Assembly (NCBI GenBank): GCA_964016885.1
Contig: OZ024740.1
Coordinates: 171,678,001 to 171,742,000 of the forward strand
DNA: 64,000 nt
Source: Eledone cirrhosa
Taxonomy: Eukaryota
Direction: 5' to 3'
Below, in pieces: positions 7,558-39,754 of this stretch. The position numbers were made by a program, and so were the translations under genes. Numbering within the stretch: the stretch's first letter is position 1; each line of letters begins with the position of its first letter. Below the pieces are notes generated by a model that did not search any database, was not told the origin of the DNA, and worked only from the letters and a program-made list of their open reading frames with translations.

Positions 7558-7617
<60 letters not shown>

Positions 7618-7820
7618 TATGTACACGTACATACATATATGTATATAGACGTACAGTAGTATGTATATATATATACATACATGCACACATATATATATGT
7701 ACGTATGGATTCACCGAATATTTATTATAATGCTCGGTGTGTTTGTAAACAAACATCCCGTATTAAGCCGTAGTGTCTAGCAACCATCGTTGCTCGTTTG
7801 TTCAACACTGACAATGTAAC

Positions 7821-7862
7821 AGCCGTACTAGTTTCAAACTTATTAGCTATCGTCAGCAACGT
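7821..7862 (-). ncRNA. Type I hammerhead ribozyme (inverted monomer)
   Basis: Minus strand reads ACGUUG-CUGACGA-U-AGCU-AAUA-AGUU-U-GAAACUAGUA-CGGC; helix I is weaker than in the plus-strand copies. Confidence 0.7.
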
Positions 7863-8407
7863 ATACCTTCCTGCCAGATTGTTGAACGTATATACTTACC
7901 TTATGCATATTAACGGTTGAGTAGCCCAATTTGCATATCGAGTGGGTTAATCGGCCGGGTGCACCGACAACGATAAACGGAAAAAATGAAACGAAATTTC
8001 GTTCCCCACTCTTAGTACAGCTGTTACTTTGTCAGTGTTGAACAAACGAGCAACGAAGGTTGCTAGACACTACGGCTTAATACGGGATGTTTGTTTAGAA
8101 ACACACCGAGCATTATAATAAATGTTCGGTGAATCCATGCGTACATATATATATGTGTGCATGTATGTATATATATATATATATACATACTACTGTACGT
8201 CTGTATACATATATGTATGTACGTGTACATACTTATATTTAAGTAACAGCGGTACTAAGAGTGGAAAATGTAATTTCGTTTCATTTTTTCCGTTTATCGT
8301 TGTCGGTGCACCCGGCCGATTAACCCACTCGATATGCAAATTGGGCTACTCAACCGTTAATATGCATAAGGTAAGTATATACGTTCAACAATCTGGCAGG
8401 AAGGTAT

Positions 8408-8450
8408 ACGTTGCTGACGATAGCTAATAAGCTTGAAACTAGTACAGCGT
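8408..8450 (+). ncRNA. Type I hammerhead ribozyme, unit 1
   Basis: Helix I ACGUUG/CAGCGU, core CUGACGA...GAAA, helix II AGCU-AAUA-AGCU, palindromic helix III ACUAGU; predicted cleavage after GUA at 8444. Confidence 0.85.
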
Positions 8451-8837
8451 TCCTTTGTCAGTGTTGAACAAACGAGCAACGATGGTTGCTAGACACTACG
8501 GCTTAATACGGGATGTTTGTTTACAAACACACCGAGCATTATAATAAATGTTCGGTGAATCCATACGTACATATATATATATATATATATGTGTGCATGT
8601 ATGTATATATATACACATACTACTGTACGTCTGTATACATATATGTATGTACGTGTACATACTTATATTTAAGTAACAGCCGTACTAAGAGTGGGAAATG
8701 AAATTTCGTTTCATTTTTTCCGTTTATCGTTTTCGGGGCACCCGGCCCATTAACCCACTCGATATGGAAATTGGGCTACTCAACCGTTAATATGCATAAG
8801 GTAAGTATATACGTTCAACAATCTGGCAGGAAGGTAT

Positions 8838-8880
8838 ACGTTGCTGACGATAGCTAATAAGCTTGAAACTAGTACAGCGT
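8838..8880 (+). ncRNA. Type I hammerhead ribozyme, unit 2
   Basis: Identical to 8408-8450. Confidence 0.85.
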
Positions 8881-9268
8881 TCCTTTGTCAGTGTTGAACA
8901 AACGAGCAACGATGGTTGCTAGACACTACGGCTTAATACGGGATGTTTGTTTACAAACACACCGAGCATTATAATAAATGTTCGGTGAATCCATACGTAC
9001 ATATATATATATATATATGTGTGCATGTATGTATATATATATACACATACTACTGTACGTCTGTATACATATATGTATGTACGTGTACATACTTATATTT
9101 AAGTAACAGCCGTACTAAGAGTGGGAAATGAAATTTCGTTTCATTTTTTTCCGTTTATCGTTTTCGGGGCACCCGGCCGATTAACCCACTCGATATGCAA
9201 ATTGGGCTACTCAGACGTTAATATGCATAAGGTAAGTATATACGTTCAACAATTTGGCAGGAAGGTAT

Positions 9269-9311
9269 ACGTTGCTGACGATAGCTAATAAGCTTGAAAT
9301 TAGTACAGCGT
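9269..9311 (+). ncRNA. Type I hammerhead ribozyme, unit 3
   Basis: Same motif with GAAAUUAGUA (C to U, giving a U-G pair in helix III). Confidence 0.75.
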
Positions 9312-9692
9312 TCCTTTGTCAGTGTTGAACAAACGAGCAACGATGGTTGCTAGACACTCCGGCTTAATACGGGATGTTTGTTTACAAACACACCGAGCAT
9401 TATAATAAATGTTCGGTGAATCCATACGTACATATTTATATATGTGTGCATGTATGTATATATATATACATACTACTGTACATCTGTATACATATATGTA
9501 TGTACGCGTACATAGTTATATTTAAGTAACAGCCGTACTAAGAGTGGGAAATGAAATTTCGTTTCATTTTTTTTCCGTTTATCGTTTTCGGTGCACCCGG
9601 CCCATTAACCCACTCGATATGCAAATTGGGCTACTCAGCCGTTAATATGCTTAAGGTAAGTACATACGTTCAACAATCTGGCAGGAAGGTAT

Positions 9693-9735
9693 ACGTTGCT
9701 GACGATAGCTAATAAGCTTGAAACTAGTACAGCGT
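9693..9735 (+). ncRNA. Type I hammerhead ribozyme, unit 4
   Basis: Identical to 8408-8450. Confidence 0.85.
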
Positions 9736-10114
9736 TCCTTTGTCAGTGTTGAACAAACGAGCAACGATGGTTACTAGACACTACGACTTAATACGGGATG
9801 TTTGTTTACAAACACACCGAGCATTATAATAAATGTTCGGTGAATCCATACGTACATATATATATATGTGTGCATGTATGTATATATATACACATACTAC
9901 TGTACGTCTGTATACATATATGTATGTACGTGTATATACTTATATTTAAGTAACAGCCGTACTAAGAGTGGGAAATGAAATTTCGTTTCATTTTTTCCGT
10001 TTATCGTTTTCGGGGCACCCGGCCGATTAACCCACTCGATATGCAAATTGGGCTACTCAGACGTTAATATGCATAAGGTAAGTATATACGTTCAACAATC
10101 TGGCATGAAGGTAT

Positions 10115-10157
10115 ACGTTGCTGACGATAGCTAATAAGCTTGAAACTAGTACAGCGT
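10115..10157 (+). ncRNA. Type I hammerhead ribozyme, unit 5
   Basis: Identical to 8408-8450. Confidence 0.85.
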
Positions 10158-10419
10158 TCCTTTGTCAGTGTTGAACAAACGAGCAACTATGATTGCTAGA
10201 CACTACGGCTTAATACAGGATGTTTGTTTACAAACACACCGAGCATTATAATAAATGTTCGGTGAATCCACACGTACATATATATATGTGTGCATGTATG
10301 TATATATATACATACTACTGTACATCTGTATACATATATGTATGTACGTGTACATACTTATATTTAAGTAACAGCCGTACTAAGAGTGGGAAATGAAATT
10401 TCGTTTCATTTTTTCCGTT

Positions 10420-10496
<77 letters not shown>

Positions 10497-10537
10497 ATAA
10501 TATTAATAAATGGAAACTATCTTTATAAAACCATATT

Positions 10538-15837: not shown

Positions 15838-15880
15838 ATAGTCCTGATGAAGGGTAATGACCCAGAAACATGTTGATTGT
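15838..15880 (+). ncRNA. Type I hammerhead ribozyme in a divergent relative of the 425-bp unit
   Basis: Helix I AUAGUC/GAUUGU, CUGAUGA, helix II GGGU-AAUG-ACCC, GAAA, palindromic ACAUGU; cleavage triplet GUU ends at 15874. Confidence 0.8.
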
Positions 15881-31971: not shown

Positions 31972-34900
31972 CAACTGCTGATGTTGGAGGAGGAAGAAGA
32001 AGAAGGAAAGGGGCCAGAACCAACTGGACGAAAGAATTGAATAGAACTGTTATGCAATGTTACCTGAAAAGTAACCCCAAGGAGAGGGGCTACAGGAGAC
32101 GGATGCATAACATCTGGAACGAGATTGGTCTATTTAAATTAGATGAACAAAAATTGGCCGGGCAGGCTCGGGTAATAAGAACTAATGGGTGGATAAGCGA
32201 GCTGGAACTGGAGGAACTGAGCAGAGAGAATGGCTTGGAGATGGCGGGTGTAGTATGCCAGACAAGCGAGCCAGTGGGAAATGAAGGTGAAGAGGTCGAG
32301 AGAACGGAGGAACCACCCGAAGCAGACAATGATCTGAATACTGAGATAAATAATACCTGGAACAGAGATACGGCCACCGAGGAGATGAATGCTGACGGGC
32401 TAGGACAAGATTCGGTTGACATCCTAAATTTAGTGGTAGATGAATTGAACAATGATAGTGGGAGACCTATGAACCTAAGATTTGTAGACAGGAAAAAGTT
32501 AAAAGAAACAACAGCTAAGGTAAACAAAGTCATCCCATACCTTGAGGCGAGGAGCCTTCACCAGTGCAACAATATCCTCAAAGCAACAGCAAATACGGTG
32601 AGGAAACTACTTGGTATAAAAGCGAGAGGAAACAACAGACAAGAAAGAGCAGAGCCGTGGTGGAAGAAACGACTGAGTGGTCAAATCGGGGAAATGAGAA
32701 ATGACATAGGAAAGCTTGAGTCACTACTGAATGGGACACTAAAAAACATAGGCACTAAAAATAGACTGGAAATAAAGTACAAAACTAGGAGGAAAAAGCT
32801 AAATATTATCATAGAGGAACTGAAGCAACGCATTGTAGCAAAGAATGCCAAAATCAGGCGATACGAGAACAGAGTCAGTCAGTATAAACAGAACCGCATG
32901 TTCGACAACAACCAGAAGATGCTGTTTGGACAGCTTGAGGGGAAAGAAAGAGACAACGACTTGATCCCTGGGGCGGAGCAAACTAAAACATTCTGGAGAG
33001 GAATATGGGAGCAGGATGTTAGACATAATGTCCAGGCAGGGTGGATTGAGACAGTACAGAGGGAGATCGGTGAGCAGGCACACCAACAAACTGATTTGAG
33101 TATCACAGTTGAAACTCTTAAGGGGCAGGCCAAAAAACTAACCAACTGGAAATCACCAGGCCCAGATGGTGTGCAGGGGTATTGGATTAAAAATTTAACA
33201 TCCCTCCACCCGAAGCTGACGGCCATGTTCAATGACTGCTTGGTGTCGGGTGAGGTGCCAGAGTGGTTGACAAAAGGTACCACAGTTCTGATAATGAAAG
33301 ACCGAATCAAGGGTAATGATGTTACCAACTATAGACCTATCACATGTCTGTCCGTAATGTGGAAACTGTTGACGAGCATTGTGTCTGAGGAAATCTACCA
33401 TCACCTCCACACAAACAACTTGTTACCGGACGAACAGAAAGGATGCCGAAAGAAGTCACGTGGTACAAAAAGACCAGTTACTTATTGATAAGATGGTAAT
33501 GGGGAATTGCAGGAGGAGACACACTGATCTTGCCATGGGATGGATAGACTACAGAAAGGCATTTGACATGGTGCCTCATTCTTGGATCACCAAAAGCCTG
33601 GAGATCTTCAGGGTGTCAGATAACATCAGACAGTTGCTGGGCAGGAGTATGGGGTCCTGGGAGACAGAGTTGACATCAACTGGAGTATCCTTGGGAAGCG
33701 TGAAGATCAAGAGAGGTATCTTCCAGGGAGATAGCCTGTCCCTTCTGTTGTTTGTCCTTGCCCTGATGCCCTTGACCACTATGCTGCGAAAAGTGAGAGC
33801 AGGATACAAGTTGGGAAAGGGAGAGCTTACCATCAATCACCTCCTCTTCATGGACAATCTTAAGCTCTTCGTGAAAAGTGAGAAGGAGTTGGATGTGCTT
33901 GTTGACACTGTCCGTATTTTCAGCAGTGATATATGTATGCAGTTTGGTATTAGTAAATGTGGAGTCATTGTGATGAGGAGGGGTAGGTTGAGCAGAAGTA
34001 ACGGGATCCAGATACCAACAGGTGAGATGATAAAGGAAATTGACTCTGAGGAAGGATACAAGTATTTGGGCGTTCTGGAGGCTGATGGCATCTAGAACAA
34101 AAAAATGAAGGAATTGTTAAGAACTGAATACATTCGGAGAGTAAGGAGCGTATTGAAGTCACATCTGAACAGCAGAAATGCCATAAGCGCAGTAAATTCC
34201 CGAGCTGTGTCTATTATTAGGTACAGTGCGGGAATTCTGAGATGGAATGTTGCTGAACAAAAAGAAATGGATAGGAAGACTAGGAAGCTATTGACTATCT
34301 ACAACATGTTCCACAAGAGGAGTGATGTCGATAGACTCTACCTAAGGAGATATGAGGGTGGAAGAGGTCTTATCAGCATAGAGGACTGTGTTAAGATGGA
34401 GAAAAATAACCTATACAAATACGTGACCTATAGTAAGGAGCCAATGCTCAGAACTGTACTGAAGGAGGGGACAGTAGGCCAGGGGATGTCCAAGGAGGAA
34501 ATAACATCAAGGAGGAAGAGCAGCCTTAAGGGAAAATCCCTTCATAGTACCTTCTTTGAGAAAACTGAATTTAGAGATCCACAGACATGGAACTGGTTGA
34601 GAAGAGGAGACCTCAAAAAGGCTACAGAAGGAATGCTAATGGCTGCGCAGGAGCAGGCCCTCAAAACGAAGTGGTTGAAGCACCATATTTACAAGGAGGA
34701 GGCTAGCCCACTGTGCAGGAGCTGTGGAGAGAGAGAGGAGACTGTGGCTCACATTGTGTCCGAGTGTAAACACCTAGCCCAGACCCACTATAAGGGCTGG
34801 AGACACGATGTGATGGGCAGGGTGATCCACTGGCACCTGTGCAAAGTAAACAATTTACCACATTCTGAGAAATGGTATGAGCATAGGCCAGAGGCGGTGA

Positions 34901-35360
34901 TGGAGAACAATCAGGTGAAGGTGCTGTGGGATTTTAGGATACAGACGGACAAAAAACTGGAACACAATAGACCTGACCTGGTGGTTGTGGACAAAGAAAA
35001 AAGATCGTGTCTGATTGTGGATGTGGCCTGCCCTTTCGACACGAGAGTGCAAGAGAAGGAGAGGGAGAAAATTAACCGATACCAGGACCTAAAGTGGGAG
35101 GTGAAAAGGATTTGGAACTGCCATGAAGTCAAAGTGATCCCGATTGTCATAGGCGCACTGGGGACTATCTCCAAAAGTTTCCAGGGATGGTTAAAGAAAA
35201 TCGGCCCCTTCACGCTTTTTGGAACGCTTCAAAAGGCATGCTTGCTTGGAACGGCAAGAACCCTCCGATACGTCCTGAATATCTGAGGCTGCAGGTAGTG
35301 GCTTGATATTCATTCCAACGGACTTTCCAGTTAACCAACATCAATGACTGAGATTCAAGG
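31971..35360 (+). mobile_element. R4/Dong-clade RLE non-LTR retrotransposon, copy A (near full length, inactivated)
   Basis: Single ORF with N-terminal WTKELNRTVMQCY, RT, CCHC finger and RLE; (AAT)n on both sides. Confidence 0.92.
32037..35286 (+). pseudogene. R4/Dong ORF copy A (RT + restriction-like endonuclease)
   Basis: Frameshift near 33470, catalytic FMDD changed to FMDN, premature stop at 34093-34095. RLE motifs CRSC..ETVAHIVSEC, RHD and RPDLVVVD..DVACPFD..K..RY are present. Confidence 0.92.
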
Positions 35361-35369
35361 AATAACAAC

Positions 35370-35435
<66 letters not shown>

Positions 35436-38022
35436 TAAAATACAAAACTAGGAGTAAAAAGCTAAATATTATCATAGAGGAATTGAAGCAACGCATTGTA
35501 GCAAAGAGTGCCCAAATCAGGCGATACGAGAACAGAGTCAGTCAGTATAAACAGAACCGCATGTTCGACAACAACCAGAAGATGCTGTTTGGACAGCTTG
35601 AGGGGAAAGAAAGAGGCAACGACTTGATCCCTGGGGCGGAACAAGCTAAAACATTCTGGAGAGGAATATGGGAGCAGGATGTTAGACACAATGCCCAGGC
35701 AGGGTGGATTGAGACAGTACAGAGGGAGATCGGTGAGCAGGCACAACAACAGACTGATTTGAGTATCACAGTTGAAACTCTTAAGGGGCAAGCCAAAAAA
35801 CTAACCAACTGGAAATCACCAGGCCCAGATGGTGTGCAGGGGTATTGGATTAAACATTTGACATCCCTCCACCCGAAGCTGACGGCCATGTTCAATGACT
35901 GCTTGGTGTCGGGTGAGGTGCCAGAGTGGTTGACAAAAGGTACCACAGTTCTGATAATGAAAGACCGAAGCAAGGGTAATGATGTTACCAACTATAGACC
36001 TATCACATGTCTGCCCGTAATGTGGAAACTGTTGACGAGCATTGTGTCTGAGGAAATCTACCATCACCTCCACACAAACAACTTGTTACCGGACGAACAG
36101 AAAGGATGCCGAAAGAAGTCACGTGGTACAAAGGACCAGTTGCTTATTGATAAGATGGTAATGGGGAATTGCAGGAGGAGACACACTGATCTTGCCATGG
36201 GATGGATAGACTACAGAAAGGCATTTGACATGGTGCCTCATTCCTGGATCACCAAAAGCATGGAGATCTTCAGGGTGGCAGATAACATCAGACAGTTGCT
36301 GGGCAGGAGTATGGGGTCCTGGGAGACAGAGTTGACATCAACTGGAGTATCCTTGGGAAGCGTGAAGATCAAGAGAGGTATCTTCCAGGGAGATAGCCTG
36401 TCCCCTCTGTTGTTTGTCCTTGCCCTGATGCCCTTGACCATTATGCTGCGAAAAGTGAGAGCAGGATACAAGTTGGGAAGGGGAGAGCTTACCATCAATC
36501 ACCTCCTCTTCATGGACGATCTTAAGCTCTTCGGGAAAAGTGAGAAGGAGTTGGATGTGCTTGTTGACACTGTCCGTATTTTCAGCAGTGATATATGTAT
36601 GCAGTTTGGTATTGGTAAATGTGGAGTCATTGTGATGAGGAGGGGTAGGTTGAGCAGAAGTAACGGGATCCAGATACCAACAGGTGAGATGATAAAGGAA
36701 ATTGACTCTGAGGAAGGATACAAGTATTTGGGCGTTCTGGAGGCTGATGGCATAAAGAACAAAAAAATGAAGGAATTGTTAAGAACTGAATACATTCGGA
36801 GAGTAAGGAGCGTATTGAAGTCACATCTGAACAGCAGAAATGCCATAAGCGCAGTAAATTCCCGAGCTGTGTCTATTATTAGGTACAGTGCGGGAATTCT
36901 GAGATGGAATGTTGCTGAACAAAAAGAAATGGATAGGAAGACTAGGAAGCTATTGACTATCTACAACATGTTCCACAAGAGGAGTGATGTCGATAGACTC
37001 TACCTAAGGAGATCTGAGGGTGGAAGAGGTCTTATCAGCATAGAGGACTGTGTTCAGATGGAGAAAAACAACCTATACAAATACGTGACCTATAGTAAGG
37101 AGCCAATGCTCAGAGCTGTACTGAAGGAGGGGACAGTAGGCCAGGGGATATCCAAGGAGGAAATAACATCAAGGAGGAAGAGCAGCCTTAGGGGAAAATC
37201 CCTTCATAGTACCTTCTTTGAGAAAACTGAATTTAGAGATCCACAGACATGGAACTGGTTGAGAAGAGGAGACCTCAAAAAGGCTACAGAAGGAATGCTA
37301 ATGGCTGCGCAGGAGCAGGCCCTCAAAACGAAGTGGTTGAAGCACCATATCTACAAGGAGGAGGCTAGCCCACTGTGCAGGATCTGTGGAGAGAGAGAGG
37401 AGACTGTGGCCCACATTGTGTCCGAGTGTAAACACCTAGCCCAGACCCACTATAAGGGCTGGAGACACGATGTGATGGGCAGGGTGATCCACTGGCACCT
37501 GTGCAAAGTAAACAATCTACCACATTCTGAGAAATGGTATGAGCATAGGCCAGAGGCGGTGATGGAGAACAGTCAGGTGAAGGTGCTGTGGGATTTTAGG
37601 ATACAGACGGACAAAAAACTGGAACACAATAGACCTGACCTGGTGGTTGTGGACAAAGAAAAAAGATCGTGCCTGATTGTGGATGTGGCCTGCCCGTTCG
37701 ACACGAGAGTGCAAGAGAAGGAGAGGGAGAAAATTAACCGATACCAGGACCTAAAGTGGGAGGTGGAAAGGATTTGGAACTGCCATGAAGTCAAAGTGAT
37801 CCCGATTGTCATAGGCGCACTGGGGACTATCTCCAAAGGTTTCCAGGGATGGTTAAAGAAAATCGGCCCCTTCACGCTTTTTGGAACGCTTCAAAAGGCA
37901 TGCTTGCTTGGAACGGCAAGAACCCTCCGATACGTCCTGAATATCTGAGGCTGCAGGTAGTGGCTTGATATTCAATCCAACGGACTTTCCAGTTAACCAA
38001 CATCAATGACTGAGATTCAAGG
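35436..38022 (+). mobile_element. R4/Dong retrotransposon copy B, 5'-truncated
   Basis: Near-identical to copy A from KYKTR onward, with the same ~75-nt 3'UTR and (AAT)n flanks. Confidence 0.93.
35483..37948 (+). CDS. Uninterrupted RT-RLE reading frame (821 aa, N-terminally truncated)
   Basis: KSPGPDG, YRPITCL, DYRKAFD, GIFQGDSLSP, FMDD, YKYLG, CCHC, RHD and PD..D..K are all intact. Confidence 0.88.
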   Translation: MKQRIVAKSAQIRRYENRVSQYKQNRMFDNNQKMLFGQLEGKERGNDLIPGAEQAKTFWRGIWEQDVRHNAQAGWIETVQREIGEQAQQQTDLSITVETLKGQAKKLTNWKSPGPDGVQGYWIKHLTSLHPKLTAMFNDCLVSGEVPEWLTKGTTVLIMKDRSKGNDVTNYRPITCLPVMWKLLTSIVSEEIYHHLHTNNLLPDEQKGCRKKSRGTKDQLLIDKMVMGNCRRRHTDLAMGWIDYRKAFDMVPHSWITKSMEIFRVADNIRQLLGRSMGSWETELTSTGVSLGSVKIKRGIFQGDSLSPLLFVLALMPLTIMLRKVRAGYKLGRGELTINHLLFMDDLKLFGKSEKELDVLVDTVRIFSSDICMQFGIGKCGVIVMRRGRLSRSNGIQIPTGEMIKEIDSEEGYKYLGVLEADGIKNKKMKELLRTEYIRRVRSVLKSHLNSRNAISAVNSRAVSIIRYSAGILRWNVAEQKEMDRKTRKLLTIYNMFHKRSDVDRLYLRRSEGGRGLISIEDCVQMEKNNLYKYVTYSKEPMLRAVLKEGTVGQGISKEEITSRRKSSLRGKSLHSTFFEKTEFRDPQTWNWLRRGDLKKATEGMLMAAQEQALKTKWLKHHIYKEEASPLCRICGEREETVAHIVSECKHLAQTHYKGWRHDVMGRVIHWHLCKVNNLPHSEKWYEHRPEAVMENSQVKVLWDFRIQTDKKLEHNRPDLVVVDKEKRSCLIVDVACPFDTRVQEKEREKINRYQDLKWEVERIWNCHEVKVIPIVIGALGTISKGFQGWLKKIGPFTLFGTLQKACLLGTARTLRYVLNI

Positions 38023-38034
38023 AATAACAATAAC

Positions 38035-38088
<54 letters not shown>

Positions 38089-38090
<2 letters not shown>

Positions 38091-39754
38091 GCGTGAAGAT
38101 CAAGAGAGGTATCTTCCAGGGAGATAGTCTGTCCCCTCTGTTGTTTGTCCTTGCTCTGATGCCCCTAACCAGAGTACTGCGAAAAGTGAGAGCAGGATAC
38201 AGGTTTGGAAAGGGAGGGCTTACCATCAATCACCTCCTCTTCATGGACGATCTTAAGCTCTTCGGGAAGAGTGAGAAGGAGTTGGATGTGCTGGTTTACA
38301 CTGTCCGTATTTTCAGCAATGATATATGTATGCAATTTGGTATTAGTAAGTGTGGAGTCATTGTGATGAAGAGAGGTAAGTTGAGCAGAAGTAACGGAAT
38401 CCAGGTACCAACAGGTGAGATGATAAAGGAAATTGACTCTGAAGAAGGATACAAGTATTTGGGTGTTCTGGAGGCTGATGGCATCAAGAACAAAAAAAAT
38501 GAAGGAATTGATAAGAACTGAATACATTCGGAGAGTAAGGAGCGTATTAAAGTCACATCTGAACAGTAGGAATGCCATAAGTGCAGTAAATTCCCGAGCT
38601 GTACCTATTATTAGGTACAGTGCGGGAATTCCGAGATGGAATGTTGCTGAACAAAAAGAAATGGATAGGAAGACTAGGAAGCTATTGACTATCTACAACA
38701 TGTTCCACAAGAGGAGTGATGTCGATAGACTCTACCTAAGGAGATCTGAAGGTGGAAGCGGTCTTATCAGCATAGAGGACTGTGTTCAGATGGAGAAAAA
38801 CAACCTACACAAATACGTGACTGATAGTAAGGAGCCAATGTTCAGAACTGTACTGAAGGAGGGGGCAATAGGCCAGGGGATGTCCAAGGAGGAAATAACA
38901 TCAAGGAGAAAGAGCAGCCTTCAGGAAAAATCCCTTCATAGTACCTTCTTTGAGAAAACTGAATTTAGAGATCCACAGACATGGAACTGGTTGAAAAGAG
39001 GAGACCTTAAAAAGGCTACAGAAGGAATGCTAATGGCTGCGCAGGAGCAGGCCCTCAAAACGAAGTGGTTAAAACACCATATTTATAAGGAGGAGGCTAG
39101 CCCACTGTGCAGGATCTGTGGAGAGAGAGAGGAGACTGTGGCTCACATTGTATCCGAGTGTAAACACCTAGCCCAGACTCACTATAAGGGCTGGAGACAT
39201 GATGTGATGGGCAGGGTGATCCACTGGCACCTATGCAAAGTAAACAATTTACCACATTCTGAGAAGTGGTATGAGCATAAGCCAGAGTCAGTGATAGAAA
39301 ACGATCAGGTGAAGGTGCTGTGGGATTTTAGGATACAGACGGACAAGAAACTGGAACACAATAGACCTGACCTGGTGGTTGTGGACAAAGAAAAAAGATC
39401 GTGCCTGATTGTGGATGTGGCCTGCCCATTCGACACGAGAGTGCAAGAGAAGGAGAGGGAGAAAATTAACCGATACCAGGACTTAAAGTGGGAGGTAAAA
39501 AGGATTTGGAACTGCCATGAAGTCAAAGTGATCCCGATTGTCATAGGCGCACTAGGGACTATCTCAATAAGTTTCCAGAGATGGTTAAAGAAAATTGGCC
39601 CCTTCACGCTTTTTGGAACGCTTCAAAAGGCATGCTTGCTGGGAACAGCAAGAACCCTCCGATACGTCCTGAATATCTGAGGCTGCAGGTAGTGGCTTGA
39701 TATTCATTTCAACAAACTTTCCAGTTAACTAACATCAATGACTGAGACTCAAAG
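38089..39754 (+). mobile_element. R4/Dong retrotransposon copy C, 5'-truncated within RT, frameshifted
   Basis: Starts at SVKIKRGIFQGD, has a frameshift in the A-run near 38495 and stops at 39680; more substitutions relative to A and B. Confidence 0.92.

What the first reader, a model, noticed from the sequence alone, without database searches (positions are those of the whole stretch)
7613..8030. Array geometry records a cleaved or circular RNA template
Seen: the plus-strand array begins at TAGTA|CAGC (8013-8021), the predicted HHR cleavage site. The inverted copy to its left is one whole monomer in a different circular permutation: it starts at AAGTAACAGC, crosses the HHR and ends at CATACTTAT just before that start. 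The inversion junction uses an internal segment (AAGTAACAGCCGTACT) complementary to the sequence spanning the cut. Inference: reverse transcription of a cleaved or circular RNA with fold-back template switching. The same complementarity could sequester helix I and switch the ribozyme off in the circle.
Basis: partly seen in the sequence, partly recalled or inferred. Interest (0 to 1): 0.78.

Follow-up and report, generated by a model that had tools for sequence, protein, structure and literature searches.

The report
Two-ended ribozyme retroelement insertion
This is one of thousands of copies of a small repeat carrying a predicted self-cutting ribozyme; its back-to-back layout likely comes from a Penelope-type copying enzyme that starts at two different fixed points of one RNA, one per DNA end, and not from the ribozyme's cut.

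Summary
The geometry is real; the reading is mostly not. The 430-nt repeat is a non-LTR retrozyme (type I hammerhead, 4,687 exact 40-nt core matches genome-wide). The array does not begin at the cut: 8013-8029 fits the inverted arm's own end, and the switch lies at +9 to +11. In 181 arms from other insertions, none stops at +1 to +3, and the cut site is read through 190 times. Instead, outer ends cluster at monomer positions 224 and 283, mostly in (TA)n. In head-to-head insertions one arm uses each site (52 of 55 assignable; strict classes 30 of 30), and both arms share a haplotype. This is Penelope-like anatomy (inverted arm, tail at one end). The 'whole permuted monomer' follows from the complementary segment lying next to site 224. 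The off-switch fails in folding: helix I stays formed, and the segment pairs elsewhere with covariation. What survives: the join is an over-used site (46 matches against 12 and 4), 5' ends are mildly enriched near helix I, and this locus underwent a local template switch. A circular template is plausible, not shown. The scan noted related Penelope hammerhead-edge patterns in other genomes.

The parts
7559..7612 (.). (TA)n target microsatellite at the left end; the inverted arm's outer (RNA 3') end, monomer position 224, merges into it at about 7611
7611..8029 (-). Inverted arm, about one monomer, RNA-sense 227 to 224
7826..7856 (-). Hammerhead core of the inverted arm (CTGACGA ... GAAAC-TA-GTA), with a private change in helix II
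7813..7830 (+). a'-type sequence standing in place of the hammerhead's 3' strand; unique genome-wide; makes the two arms around 7831-8012 a near-perfect palindrome
8013..8029 (.). Head-to-head join inside the A/a' imperfect inverted homology; best switch at CTT 8027-8029
8027..10422 (+). Direct arm, about 5.6 monomers of 418-430 nt, from position +9 to outer end 283
8383..8469 (+). Type I hammerhead of the first full copy: extended helix I (8383-8413 with 8445-8469), core 8414-8444, predicted cut after 8444; further predicted cuts after 8874, 9305, 9729, 10151
8671..8687 (+). a' segment (one of six direct copies: 8241, 8671, 9101, 9524, 9948, 10366); predicted to pair with 8497-8503 (monomer 53-59) and in a small hairpin whose loop holds site 224
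10364..10422 (+). 59-nt 'tail' between the two start sites (225-283), present at this end only
10423..10494 (.). (AC)n(AT)n flank at the right end

Best explanation
This is a copy of a non-coding tandem repeat with a predicted hammerhead ribozyme (a non-LTR retrozyme) whose head-to-head layout likely arose when a Penelope-type reverse transcriptase primed both ends of a break in a (TA)n tract on one RNA, one end at monomer position 224 and the other at 283. Shown: fixed outer ends at 224 and 283, one of each per two-armed insertion; scattered inner ends; both arms share a haplotype; the cut site is read through. Inferred: the enzyme is a Penelope-like RT-endonuclease; the template was a circle or an uncut multimer; the two cDNAs annealed at their 3' ends through the chance A/a' homology. 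One further local template switch at the resulting quasi-palindrome likely made both arms a'-type, and DNA-level duplication likely lengthened the array afterwards.
For:: of 214 outer 3' ends in 139 insertions, 103 are 283-class, 78 are 224-class, 33 other; 76 of 139 insertions are head-to-head; 52 of 55 with both ends assignable have one of each (3 are 283/283, none 224/224; p about 1e-12), strict classes 30 of 30; 177 of 214 outer 3' ends have (AT)4 within 24 nt, against 28 of 64 outer 5' ends; opposite arms differ at 55 of 1,157 family-polymorphic site comparisons (4.8%) against 24.6% for random pairs; in 25 of 52 neither arm contains the other; 190 read-throughs of the cut, 79 of 181 arms longer than one monomer. 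RT plus C-terminal GIY-YIG ORFs of up to 938-1,096 codons exist in the genome. Literature: inverted 5'-truncated arm, tail often at one end, (TA)n bias (PMC8557442, passages); two internal RT start sites and extension of both strands (PMC11167929, parts 1-2 of 4); arm homogenisation and spacer inversion by template switching (PMC8604942, passages).
Against: No autonomous partner was found: no pLTR homology in 47 GIY-YIG loci. The tail is 59 nt, not the 30-40 nt described. The junctions carry a few bases of homology to (TA)n, whereas the in vitro PLE start site was non-homologous. 21 of 76 two-armed insertions have at least one unassignable end. One rare allele is shared only by the inverted arm and the first array copy (2 of 248 passes), which fits fold-back copying at this locus; the window's 224 arm is contained in its 283 arm, so fold-back is possible here. 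5' ends are not fully random: 397-407 holds 13 vs 3.9 expected (scan p 0.023) and +4 to +14 holds 9 vs 3.3. The sample is mostly contig C1, 1-65 Mb, and holds a few duplicated loci.
Confidence: 0.72

Rival explanations
1. First reader, strong form: RT ran off the ribozyme-cleaved 5' end, folded back onto a' and made the inverted monomer.
For: The join lies 9-11 nt from the cut; mild excess of 5' ends at +4 to +14; 46 A/a' joins, of which about 5 switch within TAGTAC at the cut (and listing); a rare allele is shared by the inverted arm and first copy.
Against: A run-off fold-back would leave A-type sequence at the join and at the second hammerhead; both are a'-type. The same arm reads through five earlier cut sites. 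0 of 181 arms stop at +1 to +3. 10 of 11 copies lacking the upstream hexamer are point mutants that read through. The apparent step (37:7) is matched by its control (29:7; Fisher p 0.77; both read by eye).
Confidence: 0.08
2. Locus-specific double fold-back: family rule as in the best explanation, but here the left arm was copied from the nascent cDNA by two switches at A/a', with no role for cleavage.
For: One process explains the a'-type hammerhead strand, the rare shared allele and the similar microsatellite pattern of 7613-7812 and 8030-8240.
Against: The left end is exactly the family's 224 site opposite a 283 end, as in 52 of 55 others; the second switch must unpair a fresh hairpin; a later inter-strand switch that flips 7831-8012 gives the same sequence.
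Confidence: 0.13
3. LINE-type twin priming by one of the genome's LINE RTs.
For: LINE-like RT ORFs are present in the window (family labels by eye, recalled); twin priming gives 5' inversions (recalled).
Against: No poly(A) or common 3' end with a LINE was seen; the second primer site is fixed, not variable; starts are internal to a multimer.
Confidence: 0.05
4. Assembly or long-read fold-back artefact.
For: Palindromes cause such artefacts (recalled); no laid contig or read bridged the unique site (uninformative, since contigs drop rare variants and the raw runs are reduced-representation).
Against: The palindrome arms differ at 7 substitutions and two small indels; the left end is the canonical 224 site; 76 of 139 other insertions share the layout.
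Confidence: 0.02

Closest known systems
Metazoan non-LTR retrozymes (Cervera and de la Pena 2020, PMC7229834; Li et al. 2026, bioRxiv 10.64898/2026.07.22.740005)
   Same: Tandem, low-GC, non-coding monomers each with a type I hammerhead; thousands of dispersed copies; predicted circle leaves the hammerhead free to fold, as those authors report for most animal retrozymes.
   Different: 430-nt monomer with an internal (AT)-rich tract. In the parts I read, those papers infer PLE mobilisation from co-occurrence and pLTR similarity and do not describe insertion anatomy; here the anatomy itself is PLE-like.
Endonuclease-positive Penelope-like element insertions (Craig et al. 2021, PMC8557442; Frangieh et al. 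2024, PMC11167929)
   Same: Adjacent inverted 5'-truncated copy, partial tandems, tail at one end, (TA)n targets, two internal start sites downstream of a hammerhead, cleavage not needed for insertion.
   Different: No ORF; tail 59 nt; the two sites are used one per DNA end almost without exception, whereas the in vitro study saw no strand difference in start site.
Quasi-palindrome template switching (Abraham and Hazkani-Covo 2021, PMC8604942)
   Same: Imperfect inverted arms made alike, with possible inversion of the spacer.
   Different: Spacer here is about 180 nt and arms about 220 nt, far longer than the yeast cases.

Membership tests
non-LTR retrozyme | Type I hammerhead core with helix I about 6 bp, helix II about 4 bp, 1-2-bp helix III with palindromic loop | tested here: met
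   CTGACGA, stem II, GAAAC-TA-GTA; helix I probabilities 0.45-0.94; U-G to G-U swap in the related family. No Rfam match. Architecture as in PMC4209133 passages.
non-LTR retrozyme | Short tandem monomers, each with the ribozyme, low GC, no ORF | tested here: met
   Five hammerheads in the direct arm; GC 0.37; no ORF of 200 aa or more in 7600-10500. Size 430 nt is above the 170-400 nt first described, inside the 51-972 bp of the 2026 preprint.
non-LTR retrozyme | Many dispersed genomic copies | tested here: met
   4,687 exact 40-nt matches; 9,922 exact 17-nt matches.
non-LTR retrozyme | Self-cleavage; expression as linear and circular monomer RNA | not testable with these tools
   No RNA holder listed; needs bench work.
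PLE-type insertion anatomy | Adjacent inverted 5'-truncated arm | tested here: met
   76 of 139 insertions.
PLE-type insertion anatomy | Tail between two start sites, at one end only | tested here: met
   52 of 55; strict 30 of 30; length 59 nt rather than 30-40.
PLE-type insertion anatomy | AT-rich or microsatellite targets | tested here: met
   177 of 214 outer 3' ends.
non-autonomous derivative of a specific PLE | Sequence similarity to the pLTR of an autonomous PLE in the same genome | tested here: inconclusive
   None in 47 loci of 150 listed GIY-YIG matches (10,595 candidates); retrozyme copies in those loci were separate insertions.
autonomous Penelope-like element | RT plus GIY-YIG ORF | tested here: not met
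   No ORF in the element.
self-blocking ribozyme circle (viroid or plant-retrozyme type) | Hammerhead strand sequestered by a complementary segment in the circle | tested here: not met
   A:a' probability 0.0 in eight monomers folded as circles; forced pairing costs 15.5-18.7 kcal/mol.

The most novel reading that the evidence does not exclude
A dimeric Penelope-type RT loads on one circular retrozyme RNA, assigns its two start sites (224 and 283) one to each DNA end, and rolls round the circle from both. The near-absolute one-site-per-end rule, seen in a family with thousands of insertions, would then be the genomic footprint that explains how PLE inverted-arm and one-sided-tail structures form, and direct evidence that animal retrozyme circles are PLE cargo.
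Probability: 0.35. Interest if true: 0.7.

Novelty: new member of a known kind. Interest (0 to 1): 0.42.

Why it matters
The element class and the inverted-arm and tail layout are known. What adds something is the count: the two DNA ends almost never use the same start site, and both arms carry one haplotype. How PLEs make inverted and tailed insertions is called an open question in PMC8557442 (passages), and how retrozymes are mobilised is still inferred from co-occurrence. A 430-nt RNA with two mapped start sites and thousands of insertions is a small, cheap substrate for testing both. I did not find the rule in print (searches; open-access library only; supplements not read).

Tried and rejected
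Rfam at gathering and E-value thresholds: no hammerhead match, only microsatellite noise. A variant subfamily with a'-type hammerhead strand: rejected, one match only. A step in 5' ends at the cut: rejected by its control. Ligation scar at the cut: none; 193 of 198 spans have normal length. Array length as proof of rolling-circle copying: rejected, because several arrays show AB or period-3 allele patterns that fit DNA-level duplication. First forced-pairing fold failed for technical reasons and was redone on a rotated circle. First segmentation split a subfamily with a small insertion near 367; redone. Search for the autonomous partner led nowhere. Sequencing runs: no RNA holder listed; laying contigs and reads did not bridge the unique site. 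PMC7999016 passages were not useful. No earlier scan finding by sequence.

Full report
Numbering. Position 1 is window 8445, the first base after the predicted cut. A is the strand that spans the cut (426-430, 1-11); a' is the internal segment 227-243; B is 12-226 and C is 244-425. The window lies on contig C1 of a 3.0-Gb animal genome.

What is there. A 430-nt tandem array of 5.7 copies carries five type I hammerhead cores: CTGACGA, a 4-bp helix II, GAAAC-TA-GTA. Rfam does not find them. Folding gives helix I at probability 0.45-0.94, extended to about 25 bp; the circular monomer folds at -132.4 kcal/mol, z -7.0 against 60 shuffles. The 40-nt core occurs exactly 4,687 times in the genome. There is no ORF. 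This fits the non-LTR retrozymes (PMC7229834, passages and Discussion; bioRxiv 10.64898/2026.07.22.740005, parts 1-3 of 5).

The join. On the top strand the locus reads B-reversed, a', C-reversed, a'-reversed, B, a', C, A, B and so on. The stretch 8013-8029 differs from the inverted arm's a' by one CpG transition, present in 22 of 391 family passes and in an unrelated junction. From A it differs by an insertion and a mismatch. A jump alignment puts the switch at +9. The array therefore only seems to start at the cut because a' resembles A. The inverted copy's own hammerhead strand is also a'-type, a form found once in the genome.

Other insertions. I segmented the fetched loci against the window monomer: 202 distinct clusters, 170 complete and at least 92% identical, 139 after removing the window and loci chosen for the A/a' join. 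Most lie on C1, 1-65 Mb; a few are local duplicates (L163; L167/L168). 76 are head-to-head, 61 single-orientation, 2 other. Of 214 outer RNA-3' ends, 103 are 283-class (274-284), 78 are 224-class (216-228) and 33 other; 177 have (AT)4 within 24 nt. Of the 76, 55 have both ends assignable: 52 have one of each, 3 are 283/283, none 224/224 (p 8e-13 against 0.5; 6e-15 against 0.45). With strict classes it is 30 of 30. The window follows the rule: 224 on the left, 283 on the right. Opposite arms differ at 4.8% of family-polymorphic comparisons (55 of 1,157), random pairs at 24.6%, background 3.1%. In 25 of 52, neither arm contains the other, so both were copied from RNA. This matches PLE anatomy: an adjacent inverted 5'-truncated copy, a tail often at one end, (TA)n targets (PMC8557442, passages), with the tail lying between two internal RT start sites and both strands extended (PMC11167929, parts 1-2 of 4). 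RT plus GIY-YIG ORFs are present, but none of 47 such loci shares a pLTR with this repeat.

Do 5' ends mark the cut? In 181 arms with canonical 3' ends, none stops at +1 to +3 and the cut is crossed 190 times. Many arms were selected for spanning the cut, so I also counted exposure only beyond the selecting anchor: 0 observed, 0.9 expected at +1 to +3, and 0 of 58 arms selected near the start sites. These counts exclude a major stop at the cut, not a small one. Adding six upstream bases lowers the genome count from 9,922 to 8,833 (0.890) against 0.924 expected from point changes; 10 of the 11 such cases among the first 100 listed read through, and one is an A/a' join. A by-eye step (37 near, 7 far of 44 loci) was matched by its control (29 and 7 of 36 loci; p 0.77). 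Against my reading: prompted by earlier scan notes, I found 13 ends at 397-407 against 3.9 expected (scan p 0.023), 9 at +4 to +14 against 3.3 (unadjusted p 0.007), and 21 at 50-79 against 11.8 (p 0.01). Pausing at helices, trimmed cleaved ends or a discrete RNA start could each explain this.

Is the A/a' join special? It has 46 matches, about 40 after evident duplicates and including related families, against 4 at a 7-nt homology and 12 at a site without homology; the anchors differ in how many subfamilies they cover. Switch points spread along the 17 nt; 30 of 45 fetched have a tail-only short arm (its family labels are rough). None of 80 unselected junctions joins the A side to the a' side, so it is a minor class. 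Junctions without a gap show short homology (mean 1.6 against 0.8 nt, 36 of 80).

The off-switch. A:a' pairing has probability 0.0 in eight monomers folded as circles and in linear contexts. Forcing it costs 15.5-18.7 kcal/mol; the duplex is -10.4 against -25.0 for extended helix I. a' pairs with 53-59, and a related family about 77% alike keeps that helix through two double changes while weakening the match to A. Most animal retrozyme circles are likewise predicted to leave the hammerhead free, and a 2-bp helix III with a palindromic loop offers a known dimer-dependent control (PMC4209133, passages).

Circle or multimer? Both fit. One young insertion has seven full monomers across both arms, six identical and one with a single change; another has 14 near-identical ones. 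That is what one circle would give, but a uniform source array would too. Other arrays, including this one, show repeating allele patterns that fit later duplication. No ligation scar is visible.

This locus. One allele is shared only by the inverted arm and the first array copy (2 of 248 passes), and both palindrome arms are a'-type. A template switch at the quasi-palindrome explains this (PMC8604942, passages). It may have been an arm correction, an inter-strand switch that flipped 7831-8012, or a double fold-back on the nascent cDNA; I cannot separate them. The arms differ at 7 substitutions and two small indels, which argues against an artefact; public contigs and reads neither confirm nor deny the site.

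Verdict. A new member of a known class, with known PLE anatomy. The cleavage boundary and the off-switch do not hold. The one-site-per-end rule is the part worth following; I did not find it, and supplements of the cited papers, which I did not read, may bear on it.

Noticed in passing
window:15733-16110: An older, related hammerhead repeat (about 66% alike over 351 nt) with core CTGATGA at 15844, the same extended helix I, and its 3' end running into (AT)n.
   Followed up: partly
window:52912, 55906 (+) and 15394 (-): Three further hammerhead-like motifs by pattern match, probably from other PLE or retrozyme families.
   Followed up: no
window:20876-28620 (-) and 32037-39680 (+): Two clusters of LINE-like reverse transcriptase ORFs, partly broken and nested; labels by eye, not searched.
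   Followed up: no
L235:7588-8911; L125; L252: A related retrozyme family (about 77% alike, 470-512-nt monomers) with covarying helices and apparently the same two end sites.
   Followed up: partly
L088:2735-7483 and L052/L112: Arrays with strict AB alternation of two diverged monomers (period 842); either DNA-level dimer amplification or copying of a dimeric circle.
   Followed up: partly
L227:1483-4770; L225; L226: Penelope-like ORFs of 840-1,100 codons with RT and C-terminal GIY-YIG; L227 itself has an inverted arm and ends in (TA)n at two different points, like the retrozyme insertions.
   Followed up: partly
L114, L115, L260 (C1:51.77-51.79 Mb); L118: Long arrays (over 20 kb on C1) with higher-order repeats: retrozyme turning into satellite DNA.
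   Followed up: no
L136-L140 (C2:142.0-142.3 Mb): Five copies of one small two-armed insertion, probably spread by segmental duplication.
   Followed up: no
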